Assembly: GCA_965602015.1 (NCBI GenBank) | Contig: OZ271918.1 | Location: forward strand, 1,824,001-1,888,000 | Reading direction: 5' to 3' | DNA from: Salinispira sp. | Lineage (GTDB): Bacteria > Spirochaetota > Spirochaetia > DSM-27196 > Salinispiraceae | DNA: 64,000 nt | Part shown: positions 20,201-23,200 of the stretch, piece by piece | Layout of the letters: each line of letters begins with the position of its first letter | Numbering within the stretch: the stretch's first letter is position 1 | Made by a program: the position numbers

Positions 20201-23200
20201 CTGCAGCCGGAACTATGTTAAACCCGGCGAGGAGGAACCATGGGCAGGAAAATAGCGATTTTTGATACAACGCTTCGCGACGGCATGCAGGGAATCGAAA
20301 TCAATTATACCCTGGAAGACAAACTTGAAATCGCCCAGCGATTGGATGCACTGGGAATTGATTACATCGAGGGCGGCTTCCCCATGAGCAATGAAAAGGA
20401 AGCAGAGTTTTTTCGCAGAGTGAAAACAATGAATTTCCGCCACTCGTCGATTGCAAGTTTCGGGTCCACCCGTAAAGCCGGGGGGTCGGCGGACAGCGAT
20501 GGCCACATCCGAGCCCTTCTCGAAGCGGAAACGCCAACGGTAGTGGTGGTGGGCAAGACCTGGACAGAACACGTCACCAAGGTCATCGGCACAGACCTGG
20601 AAGAAAACCTGAGGATGATTGCCGATTCCATCGGCTTTCTGAAAAAACAGGACCGCGAGGTGGTATTCGATCTGGAACATTTTTTTGATGGCTACAAGGC
20701 AAACCCCGATTATGCCATAAAAGTGCTTTCCGCCGGACGGGATGCCGGCGCCGACGTTTTGGTTCCCTGCGACACCAACGGGGGAACCCTTCCCCACGAA
20801 GTCCAGCAGATCTATCGGGACCTGGTGAGCGCCGGATTTGAAAATCTCGGCGGACATTTCCACAACGACTGCGGTACCGCGGTGGCGAATAGTCTCGCCG
20901 CTGTAAACGAAGGCGCGAACCACATACAGGGCACCATCAACGGCTGGGGCGAGCGCTGCGGAAACGCCAATCTCTGCGCCATTATGCCGAATCTCACCCT
21001 GAAAATGGATTACGAGGCCAACTGCAAACCTCACATGATGCACCTCACTTCAATGAGCCGATTCGTCGCCGAAAAAGCAAACATCATCCCGGACAAACGT
21101 CAGGCCTTCGTCGGCGTGGCGGCATTCTCCCACAAGGCCGGGCAGCATGCCGACGTCATAATAAAGGCCCCCCACCTCATGGAGCAATTGGACGGAAAGC
21201 TGGTTGGAAACTCCCGGCAGGTGCTGCTCAGCGAGCTGGCGGGCAAATCCACCATAATGGAAAAACTTAAAAAGTACGGTGATTTTTCTAAAAACGACGA
21301 TGTGGTTAAGCAGCTCATCGAGGAATTAAAGCGAAGGGAAAATGACGGCTATGAGTACGAGGCAGCCGAGGCGAGCTTCGATCTTCTAATGCGCAAGGCT
21401 CTCGGCAAATACACTTCTCTTGTTCAACTTAAGAATTATCATCTTGAAAGCTACAAAACCGCCAGCGCGCAGAGCCACACTGTCGGTCGGATGTTCCTCG
21501 ACGATGACGGAACCGAGGTGATGGGAGCCGCGGTAGGAGTGGGACCGGTGGAAACCCTGGACGGCGCCCTTCGAAACGCCCTGTATCCCCACTATCCCCT
21601 TTTGAAAAATGTCAAACTCATCGACTACCGCGTGAGGGTTCTCAACCCCGAGAGCGCATCGGCAGCGAAGGTCAGGGTTTTTATAACCAGTTCGGACGGA
21701 ACAAGGGACTGGGGTACCGTGGGGGTGAATGAAAACATCGTCGAGGCCAGCTGGGAAGCTCTTCTGGACAGTTTTGAATACTACCTCAACAACGACGTCG
21801 AGCCGTAATCTGTGCAGGGCGGCGGCAATTCTCCAGGGCCAGCCTGGAGGAAAAAGAACTCAATCGAGATTTTGCTGCTGTCGCCCTATCACGCCGCAAG
21901 CCACGCGTATTGGGCAGATCAGTTGATTTCGGGCATTCGAGAAATCCGGGGCGTTGCGGTAACATGGAATCTGCGTTCCCTGCCTCCCCGCCACTTCGCA
22001 TTTCGGCTCAAAGCAGCGCCCTTGAGCCTCTGGGATTATTTTTCAGAAAGCGGCCTTTGTGTTCCGGACTTGCTCATAGCCACCAGCAGCACTGACCTCA
22101 CTTCCCTTCGGTCCTGGTTCCCCGCTATGAGGGCTGTGCCATGCCTTTTATATTTCCACGAGAACCAGTTCGTCTATCCGCCCGGGGCCTACCGGAGCCG
22201 TGAGCAGCAGCGGGATTTTTGCCTTACTCAGCTCTATTCAGCACTGGCCGCCGACTGCATCGCTTTTAACTCCCGCTGGAACCGGGAAAGCTTTTTGGAG
22301 GGAGTCAACGGCCTGTTGAACGCCCTCCCGGAAGCCATGAGTCCCGGCATTTCGAAGATTCTCGAAGAAAAAAGCAGGGTCATATACCTGCCGGTTGCTG
22401 ACCCCCGCCTTGTGCCCGGGGAAAATGAGGCAGGCTCGGCTACCCGGCATGGAGATCGGCGGGATTCGGGCACCGCCGTACTGCAGATCCGGCCGCCAAC
22501 GCAGTTAACAGCTCGCACCAATTCCGTCCCCCATTTTATTTGGCCTCATCGCTGGGAATACGACAAGGGGCCGGGCACATTGCAGGAGTTTTGCCGAACC
22601 ATGGATGAGCAGGGGCATGATTTTCGCTTGAGTCTGCTCGGCCGCAAATTCCGCACTGTTCCCGGGGAAATCTCCGAGATACTTGAGGCCTATGCCCGCC
22701 AGATTGTGCGTGCCGTGCCGTTTGCCGATACGGCGGAGTATTACGGCTTTTTACGACACTGGGGCGAAACAGACAACAGCTGGGTAATTTCCACGGCCGA
22801 CCATGAATTTTTCGGGATTTCTGTGGTCGAGGCCGTACTTGCGGGATGTACTCCCCTGGTTCCCGACGGGCTTTCCTACCGGGAACTCATTGCCGAGCGT
22901 TGGAGATACGAATACCGCCGCGGCCAGAGTGAGAAAAGCCGGGCTCAGGCCATGTATAATCATTGGAAGAATCTCGAAATAACCCAGAGGTCCAAATCCG
23001 ACCCGCTGAGCGATCTGCTCATGGATCCCCGACCCTCCGCACGGCTTGAGGACTATCGCCTAATCATCGCGGATTTGCTGGACAGGGATTGTAATCATCA
23101 CCCTGAGCATTGAGCTTGATATCCATGGCCAGAGAGTTTAAATCGAGTACTCGAAGCGACGGCTCAGCTCAAGCCCGGGCATAAACCCCGGCAAACTCTG

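What a model noticed while it worked through the whole genome (the two positions that open the first line are those of the whole stretch)
21812..23113. Bacterial homologue of the animal tRNA-queuosine mannosyltransferase QTMAN
g01592 (433 aa) matches the whole QTMAN_N domain (formerly DUF3524) and aligns over ~340-410 residues with the queuosine alpha-mannosyltransferases of fly, fish, frog, mouse and man (27-30% identity), which are its only Swiss-Prot hits; the genome makes queuosine-tRNA by salvage (YhhQ/Vut_1 precursor transporter, Tgt, QueA, QueG). Boldest reading: this spirochaete, and the ~3.6% of bacterial species that carry the family, glycosylate queuosine-34 of tRNA-Asp (or Tyr), a hypermodification so far regarded as confined to animals; the animal enzyme would then have a bacterial origin and bacteria would offer a simple genetic system to learn what glyco-Q is for.
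Evidence so far: pfam.tsv: QTMAN_N hmm 1-168 of 168, residues 19-195, E 8e-45; Swiss-Prot top five all QTMAN (Drosophila 30.0% over 340 aa, E 4e-40; mouse, zebrafish, human, Xenopus E 1e-33 to 2e-37). relatives.tsv: family at mark 0 in 49 of 98 genomes of the order, 154 of 2011 of the phylum, 6871 of 189,784 bacteria, 8 archaea; 0 of 2 in the genus (floors; call 128). Q genes g01376, g01257, g01276, g00828. Papers: abstracts of PMC8654956 and PMC10690763 place sugar-modified Q in vertebrates only (listing, call 129); a 2026 QTMAN preprint has no passage on bacterial homologues (terms bacteria/homolog/prokaryot/DUF3524; call 130).
(Added by a program. Inside this text positions count along the whole contig: contig position 1,824,001 is position 1 of the stretch shown here. 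"Call 12" and the like, gene names such as g00115 and contig names such as C1 are that model's own, and its searches are not shown. The text may have been shortened before it was handed on; [...] marks where a part breaks off. The agent that wrote the report below was given it as the finding of a first reader that could run no searches.)

Follow-up and report, generated by a model that had tools for sequence, protein, structure and literature searches.

The report
Bacterial relative of queuosine mannosyltransferase
This spirochaete has an intact relative of the animal enzyme that puts mannose on the tRNA base queuosine, and the family's nearest phage cousins sit among genes for the same kind of base, so bacteria probably sugar-coat queuosine too; nobody has tested this, and databases already name the family.

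Summary
The ORF (21812-23113, 433 aa) is an intact member of the QTMAN family: QTMAN_N E 4e-44, GT-B fold, about 26-33% identical to animal QTMANs. It keeps 14 of 14 core residues, including the lysine equivalent to human K296, which manQ formation needs. The genome has tgt, queA, queG, yhhQ and manC, and no gluQ. Animal QTMAN nests among bacterial members. This protein, however, is not close to the animal branch; it groups with gammaproteobacterial members and looks horizontally acquired. Bacterial neighbourhoods and Q-gene co-occurrence are uninformative. The best indirect support is a phage glycosyltransferase family whose profile picks this protein out in the genome: 91 of 95 of its loci lie among 7-deazaguanine genes. 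Against strict tRNA-Asp mannosylation, 13 of 14 gammaproteobacterial carriers also encode GluQ-RS, which acylates the same hydroxyl. Verdict: probably a tRNA queuosine glycosyltransferase (about 0.6), untested. NCBI and UniRef already name bacterial members, and this scan reported both the bacterial homologue and the phage link on other DNA at least eight times each.

The parts
21812..23113 (+). QTMAN-family GT-B glycosyltransferase gene, 433 aa, single copy
   Evidence: one family member in the genome
21866..22396 (+). QTMAN_N domain (residues 19-195), the inferred acceptor-binding Rossmann domain
   Evidence: Pfam PF12038 E 4e-44; acceptor role from general GT-B knowledge
21980..22021 (+). 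Basic-aromatic segment, residues 57-70, net charge +3; the same segment averages +3.9 in animals and +3.0 to +4.0 in bacterial groups; candidate tRNA-contact surface (inferred)
22151..22180 (+). YFHENQxxYP family motif (residues 114-123) with the invariant His116
   Evidence: invariant columns
22430..22492 (+). Low-confidence interdomain insertion (residues 207-227); vertebrate QTMANs have a longer insertion at the same place
   Evidence: pLDDT under 50; alignment
22547..22567 (+). HRWEYDK motif with Arg247 and Lys252; Lys252 corresponds to human K296, required for manQ
   Evidence: K296A abolishes manQ (passages of bioRxiv 10.64898/2026.06.28.735034); the Lys lies 162 residues from the C-terminus in seal and bird QTMAN, matching 458 minus 296, with the human length of 458 recalled
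22805..22831 (+). E-x7-E motif (Glu332-Glu340) of retaining GT4-type enzymes, identical in spacing to animal QTMAN
   Evidence: motif role recalled from MshA/PimA literature
20240..21808 (+). Upstream citramalate synthase cimA, 3 nt before the start; likely co-transcribed, but a genus-level neighbour only
   Evidence: TIGR00977 618 bits; same order in G096; cimA is not among the recurring or Pfam-scanned neighbours of the other loci

Best explanation
A stand-alone, retaining GT-B glycosyltransferase that moves a sugar from an NDP-sugar (most likely GDP-mannose) onto the cyclopentenediol of queuosine at position 34 of tRNA, most simply tRNA-Asp as in animals. Pathway in this cell: a precursor is imported by YhhQ, inserted by Tgt, matured by QueA and QueG to Q, then glycosylated by this enzyme. 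Shown here: the gene, fold, catalytic residues, pathway genes and tree position. Inferred: the acceptor (about 0.6 for Q in tRNA), and the sugar and tRNA (about 0.35-0.4 for mannose on tRNA-Asp specifically). This lineage probably got the gene from a gammaproteobacterium and has kept it beside cimA.
For: 1) The only characterised members are animal QTMANs, which nest among bacterial sequences, sister to an Omnitrophota protein (support 96, 95); bacterial members reach 47.7% identity to them. 2) Both domains are conserved: of positions at least 95% fixed in 21 animals, the query keeps 31 of 63 in the N domain and 31 of 44 in the C domain; 14 of 14 core residues are kept, as in 134 of 150 group A, 116 of 123 group B and 25 of 28 own-order proteins. 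3) The nearest phage family aligns over both domains (hhalign 99.7%, E 2e-25; 98.9%); its profile's best hit in this genome is the query, 64 bits against 21 for the next GT4. 91 of 95 viral loci of that family have folE, queD, queE, dpdL-like or TGT-like genes within 7 kb; 76 have a TGT-like gene, all on the same strand; 7 of 7 GenBank phage regions read agree. 4) It is not a cell-envelope cluster gene: 1 of 190 bacterial loci has another GT4-like ORF (130). 5) Carriers have tgt in 40 of 41, a manC-like gene in 39 of 41, and queA in 15 of 15 and 14 of 14. 6) This genome has no GluQ-RS, so the allylic hydroxyl is free, and no DpdA-like gene was found, so tRNA is the only evident 7-deazaguanine-bearing acceptor.
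Against: No experiment. Q genes lie near 4 of 197 bacterial loci, about what chance gives by my estimate. Co-occurrence has little power: queA is in 395 of 401 spirochaetes and 232 of 250 Gammaproteobacteria; manC 17 of 17 against 44 of 55 is p 0.056. GluQ-RS acylates the same allylic hydroxyl of Q (abstracts), yet 13 of 14 gammaproteobacterial carriers encode it; the exclusion I predicted is absent. Two carriers (G043, G048; 96% and 94% complete) lack a manC match and one (G411) lacks tgt. The query is divergent: it has Phe64 and Lys67 where animals have Trp and Arg, and Ala-Ala for the Gly-Gly loop. The phage link is distant: 16-18% identity in profile alignments, no Pfam QTMAN_N hit on L111, a single-sequence match only to the C domain, and QTMAN is absent from L111's nearest Atlas clusters. 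Reviews list manQ as absent from bacteria (passage).
Confidence: 0.6

Rival explanations
1. The bacterial proteins glycosylate something unrelated to queuosine (a small metabolite, lipid or protein), as the stand-alone GT4 enzymes MshA, BshA and PimA do; tRNA specificity arose only on the animal branch.
For: GT-B enzymes change acceptors readily (general knowledge). The best solved-structure matches are GlgM, glycogen synthase, MshA and BshA. Neighbourhoods give no tRNA link. Coexistence with GluQ-RS. A basic-aromatic helix can also bind membranes, as in PimA (recalled).
Against: Those structural matches are generic, at most 16% identity. The family-specific N-domain motifs are shared with animals. 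The sister phage family is also tied to 7-deazaguanine genes, so a deazaguanine acceptor on both flanking branches is the simpler reading.
Confidence: 0.22
2. The enzyme glycosylates a free 7-deazaguanine compound (queuosine, queuine or preQ1) or another Q-tRNA intermediate, for storage or control of salvage, and not mature tRNA.
For: The phage relatives often occur without queC and so cannot meet a cyclopentenediol; the 7-substituent accepted has varied in the wider family. This genome depends on salvage.
Against: The basic-aromatic segment fits a polynucleotide substrate. The gene is not clustered with transport or salvage genes.
Confidence: 0.08
3. In this lineage the gene is a decaying or inactive passenger kept by coupling to cimA.
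For: Long branch; only 33% identity to the same-genus orthologue, which has large insertions; missing from 6 of 7 other genomes of the family; a stop codon in one gammaproteobacterial copy.
Against: Open frames and conserved motifs in both genus members despite that divergence; 14 of 14 core residues; confident model, mean pLDDT 88.
Confidence: 0.05
4. Like its phage relatives, it acts on 7-deazaguanine in DNA, the cell's own or an invading phage's.
For: The sister family is embedded in phage DNA-modification cassettes with TGT-like genes.
Against: No DpdA-like, folE, queC, queD or queE match in this genome with the markers used; no PADLOC match; it belongs to the QTMAN clade and not to the phage clade.
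Confidence: 0.05

Closest known systems
Animal QTMAN (GTDC1), tRNA-queuosine alpha-mannosyltransferase; Pfam PF12038
   Same: Two-domain GT-B architecture, the HENQ, HRWExDK and E-x7-E motifs, the K296-equivalent lysine, the linker insertion site, and about 26-33% identity.
   Different: It lies in a different subgroup (group A, mostly Gammaproteobacteria); the Gly-Gly loop and the KKWHWRAR-type segment are altered; the host makes Q through bacterial Tgt, QueA and QueG; the host's tRNA-Asp has A38 where C38 is described for human tRNA-Asp (103, 36); activity untested.
Bacterial DUF3524 / 'tRNA-queuosine alpha-mannosyltransferase domain-containing' proteins
   Same: Same family: 1698 homologues, many already so named by NCBI or UniRef; single copy, no fixed neighbours.
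   Different: The query forms a long-branched clade with four close relatives inside the gammaproteobacterial group, apart from members of its own order.
Phage glycosyltransferases in 7-deazaguanine (DpdA/DpdL/FolE/QueD/QueE) clusters, e.g. Acidovorax ACP17, Pseudomonas vB_Pa-PAC2, Xanthomonas X1 and PhiXhv-15, Burkholderia BCSR5, Sinorhizobium Phosso
   Same: Nearest phage relatives by sequence; share the N-terminal EP, the His, the R-x4-K and the C-terminal glutamates; predicted to act on a 7-deazaguanine in nucleic acid.
   Different: Uncharacterised themselves; presumed DNA substrate; no QTMAN_N Pfam hit on the one member scanned; a separate clade.
GluQ-RS (YadB), bacterial glutamyl-queuosine synthetase
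   Same: The known bacterial way to decorate Q34 of tRNA-Asp, at the same allylic hydroxyl as mannose.
   Different: Unrelated synthetase fold; adds glutamate; absent from this order, 0 of 99 over the cut-off.
Retaining GT4-type enzymes GlgM, MshA, BshA, PimA
   Same: GT-B fold and donor-binding residues (Foldseek).
   Different: At most 16% identity; no QTMAN_N motifs; small-molecule or lipid acceptors.

Membership tests
QTMAN family (PF12038 + GT-B C domain) | Full QTMAN_N domain above the Pfam cut-off | tested here: met
   150.8 bits against 25, profile 1-168 of 168
QTMAN family (PF12038 + GT-B C domain) | Retaining GT-B fold with two Rossmann domains | tested here: met
   Model pLDDT 88 (25); top PDB matches are GT-B
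QTMAN family (PF12038 + GT-B C domain) | Catalytic lysine equivalent to human K296 and the other core residues | tested here: met
   Lys252; 14 of 14; the mapping uses the recalled human length
QTMAN family (PF12038 + GT-B C domain) | Falls inside the family clade and not with other GT4s or the phage family | tested here: met
   Tree; family profile 374 bits against 35 for the next genome protein
Animal QTMAN orthologue clade | Groups with animal QTMAN | tested here: not met
   AU p 0.002 for query clade plus animals; the group was named after seeing earlier trees
tRNA-queuosine alpha-mannosyltransferase activity | Host has Q34-tRNA | tested here: met
   Genes only: tgt, queA, queG, yhhQ; Q itself not measured
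tRNA-queuosine alpha-mannosyltransferase activity | GDP-mannose is the donor | tested here: inconclusive
   manC present; 39 of 41 carriers; 17 of 17 against 44 of 55, p 0.056
tRNA-queuosine alpha-mannosyltransferase activity | Transfers mannose to the allylic hydroxyl of Q34 in tRNA-Asp | not testable with these tools
   Needs tRNA mass spectrometry or an enzyme assay
Phage 7-deazaguanine-cluster glycosyltransferases | Encoded with a TGT-like DpdA and deazaguanine synthesis genes | tested here: not met
   None near the gene or found in the genome

The most novel reading that the evidence does not exclude
Animal QTMAN, its thousands of bacterial relatives and a phage family in DNA-modification cassettes form one superfamily of enzymes that glycosylate 7-deazaguanines inside nucleic acids. 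Several percent of bacteria then carry glycosylated queuosine in tRNA, and animals took the enzyme from a bacterium. In Gammaproteobacteria it would compete with GluQ-RS for the same hydroxyl, a sugar-versus-glutamate switch on tRNA-Asp, or it would have moved to tRNA-Tyr, -His or -Asn or to another sugar, giving an undescribed nucleoside.
Probability: 0.5. Interest if true: 0.75.

Novelty: new member of a known kind. Interest (0 to 1): 0.5.

Why it matters
Reviews and recent papers place sugar-modified queuosine in animals or eukaryotes only and call its purpose unclear. If bacteria make it, cultured carriers such as Marinobacter, Marinomonas and Arhodomonas give a cheap knockout system, small enzymes for the first structure (none found in the PDB by sequence), and a way to ask how a glycosyltransferase came to act on RNA. 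The claim can be tested in weeks. It scores moderately because the homology is already in database names, the function rests on inference, and this particular gene is among the poorer representatives to test.

Tried and rejected
Gene neighbours: 110 genome loci (150 of 202 neighbour representatives scanned with Pfam) and 80 metagenome loci show only lineage-level neighbours (TrpRS, an RsmB/F methyltransferase, an M18 peptidase, a GGDEF protein); a link to cimA is rejected as genus-specific. Q-gene proximity, 4 of 197 loci, is treated as chance. Co-occurrence with queA had no power. Mutual exclusion with GluQ-RS was predicted and not found: 13 of 14 carriers against 130 of 236 non-carriers (p 0.005 towards co-occurrence); against 55 size-matched non-carriers (42 of 55, my hand count) p is 0.27, so the positive association is not claimed either. 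Q-poor phyla (Actinomycetota, archaea), where the test would have power, could not be reached. Foldseek against viral models put the ACP17 enzyme second, but Arthrobacter phage enzymes first and third, all with scores like generic GT-B hits; their context was not obtained (107 and 109 returned other phages), so this is not used as support. No RNA holder listed. Promoter and terminator scans were at chance level; G+C does not stand out from the flanks. NCBIfam, PHROGs and PADLOC gave no family for the query. In the tree the row L102_q was a wrongly picked ORF and was dropped from later analyses; that tree held only 4 own-order proteins because my motif filter missed their HE(T/S/H)Q variants.

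Full report
Observation. The window has a 433-codon ORF at 21812-23113 (+) that starts with GTG three bases after the stop of a citramalate synthase gene and ends before the convergent carB. Pfam QTMAN_N covers residues 19-195 completely (E 4e-44). The AlphaFold2 model is confident (mean pLDDT 88) and matches retaining GT-B enzymes at 16% identity or less. No solved QTMAN was found by sequence. Against 21 named animal QTMAN/GTDC1 proteins retrieved, 18 align as one segment at 25.8-32.9% identity and three in two segments. The genome has tgt, queA, queG, yhhQ and a manC above cut-off, and lacks queC and gluQ. One correction: the complete same-genus genome G096 has the gene, in the same place between cimA and carB, 547 aa and 33% identical.

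Catalytic anatomy. A 2026 preprint shows that human K296A abolishes manQ (10.64898/2026.06.28.735034, passages). In seal and bird QTMAN the lysine of the HRWEHDK motif lies 162 residues from the end, which fits position 296 of a 458-residue human protein (length recalled). The query has Lys252 there. It also keeps His116, Arg247 and Glu332-x7-Glu340, the residues that define retaining GT4 chemistry (roles recalled). All 14 core residues I scored are present, as in 21 of 21 animals and 275 of 301 other proteins of the three bacterial groups. Of positions fixed in animals the query keeps 31 of 63 in the acceptor domain and 31 of 44 in the donor domain. A basic-aromatic segment after the second strand carries +3 to +4 in all groups; it suits RNA binding, but it could also bind membrane.

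Family history. A FastTree tree of 320 rows and an IQ-TREE tree of 76 rows rooted on phage enzymes (quick search, long outgroup branches) agree. Animals form one clade inside bacterial diversity, sister to an Omnitrophota protein (support 96 and 95). That protein was my query for finding the animal sequences, and no named non-animal eukaryote was included, so the donor is not settled. The query does not sit there. It groups with Marinobacter, Arhodomonas and Wenzhouxiangella proteins (support 96), away from members of its own order. AU tests on 29 rows reject a clade with its own order (p 8e-5) and with animals (p 0.002) (groups named after seeing the trees). The gene therefore looks acquired from a gammaproteobacterium. 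It is 31% identical to its best animal match in the multiple alignment, against medians of 36-42% for the other groups.

Bacterial context. The family is in 62 of 99 genomes of the order, 15 of 401 spirochaetes and 14 of 251 Gammaproteobacteria. It has no conserved neighbour in 190 loci. Only 1 of 190 has another GT4-like ORF by a small home-made profile, which argues against an envelope polysaccharide role. Q genes are near 4 of 197 loci, about chance; one case is queC-queE-transposase-QTMAN in one orientation (L119). Carriers nearly always have queA (61 of 62, 15 of 15, 14 of 14), tgt (40 of 41) and a manC-like gene (39 of 41), but so do most non-carriers (queA 395 of 401 and 232 of 250; manC 44 of 55, p 0.056). 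These counts are compatible with the idea and do not test it hard. The background tallies include genomes flagged unpublished (G735, G609, G535) and omit G699; none is a carrier and no conclusion depends on them.

A prediction that failed. Glutamyl-Q and mannosyl-Q both use the allylic hydroxyl of Q (PMC10690763 abstract and introduction; PMC12518689 passages), so I expected carriers to lack GluQ-RS. This order lacks it altogether (0 of 99), but 13 of 14 gammaproteobacterial carriers have it, no fewer than size-matched non-carriers (42 of 55, hand count; p 0.27). Since the query belongs to that subgroup, mannose on tRNA-Asp is less certain than glycosylation of Q in general.

The phage sister family. 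Earlier notes of this scan pointed to QTMAN-like phage genes, and I tested the link. A family alignment found one IMG/VR locus, L111: folE, GAT-queC, oxidoreductase, glycosyltransferase, TGT-like gene, parB, terminase. A bacterial member found six GenBank phage records, and the family extended to 23 records. All seven GenBank regions I read have deazaguanine genes within 8 kb. In two further scans 91 of 95 viral loci had at least one such gene and 76 a TGT-like gene on the same strand; after dereplication at 90% identity 24 of 27 clusters did (markers came from related phages, and the dereplication used only loci whose protein my pattern extracted). The relationship is reciprocal: the phage profile scores the query at 64 bits and the next GT4 in the genome at 21, and profile alignments cover both domains. 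It is also distant: 16-18% identity, no QTMAN_N hit on L111, and neither the Atlas nor Foldseek singles it out. With animal QTMAN inside the family and a deazaguanine-linked family just outside it, a 7-deazaguanine acceptor is the simplest state for the bacterial members. In this genome the only evident source of such a base is tRNA.

Mechanism. Most likely the C domain binds an NDP-sugar through Arg247, Lys252 and the two glutamates, the N domain holds the anticodon loop with Q34 flipped into the cleft, and the sugar is transferred with retention to a cyclopentene hydroxyl. Steps shown: gene, fold, residues, pathway genes. Steps inferred: substrate, donor, tRNA. I put Q-tRNA glycosylation at 0.6, an unrelated acceptor at 0.22, a free deazaguanine at 0.08, and inactivity or DNA at 0.05 each.

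What is in print. Searches: QTMAN (14 papers, 13 listed), DUF3524 (0), manQ with bacteria, GTDC1 with bacteria and homolog; for phages. No listing showed a study of bacterial homologues; I saw titles and abstract starts only. Passages read: the two 2026 preprints, PMC11755703, PMC7694415, which assigns ManQ and GalQ to eukaryotes, PMC12518689, PMC7824862, Cui et al. 10.1101/2023.04.13.536721 and PMC6884629, neither with the word glycosyltransferase in the main text. Cui et al. report that ACP17 dpdL plus dpdA gave no dDG in E. coli and that other enzymes may be needed. Not available: Zhao et al. 2023, Iyer et al. 2013 and a 2024 review of 7-deazaguanine biology; any of them may already mention bacterial or phage homologues. 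No supplements were read, and they may bear on this. NCBI, UniRef and the ESM Atlas already name bacterial members after QTMAN.

Verdict. A real, intact new member of a known family whose bacterial function is untested and probably is glycosylation of tRNA queuosine. The idea is good and cheap to test, but it is not new to databases or to this scan, and a group B protein would be the better first test. Interest 0.5.

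Noticed in passing
L111:170-8644; L193-L199; L214-L308: A large phage GT-B family sits inside 7-deazaguanine DNA-modification cassettes, in two versions: with GAT-QueC and an oxidoreductase (L111, PhiXhv-15), or without queC but with a DpdL-like protein. 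It predicts a sugar-bearing 7-deazaguanine in DNA. Noted earlier by this scan.
   Followed up: yes
G000:C1:1806152-1806227 (outside the window): The single tRNA-Asp(GUC) has A at position 38, where C38 is described for human tRNA-Asp; the order also lacks GluQ-RS.
   Followed up: no
L001-L030, L206, L211: Family members of this spirochaete order form their own subgroup with HE(T/S/H)Q in place of HENQ and QENFG in place of HEFFG, which may mean a changed donor or acceptor.
   Followed up: partly
L119:96-4611: Metagenome locus with queC-queE, a transposase, then a QTMAN-family gene, all in one orientation.
   Followed up: partly
L033, L035, L037, L044, L047: In Marinobacter-like loci the gene follows a cassette that looks like arsenate resistance (ArsC-like, GAPDH, MFS transporters; names judged from the sequences); apparently lineage-specific.
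   Followed up: no
L205:7038-8681; P0012: The same-genus orthologue has four low-complexity loop insertions (547 aa) yet keeps the motifs, and its start overlaps the cimA stop by four bases.
   Followed up: partly
G557:C30:38780-39142; L208:6314-7177: Apparently broken copies: an in-frame stop in one gammaproteobacterium and a frame ending before the E-x7-E motif in one spirochaete; assembly error not excluded.
   Followed up: no
window 17346-20095 (-) and 23203-27790 (-): Ordinary flanks: PgeF-like laccase-domain gene and arginyl-tRNA synthetase on one side, carA-carB, adenine phosphoribosyltransferase and tsaD on the other (all but the PgeF-like gene named from sequence by recall); tRNA-Gln genes at 1136-1208 and 27831-27904.
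   Followed up: no
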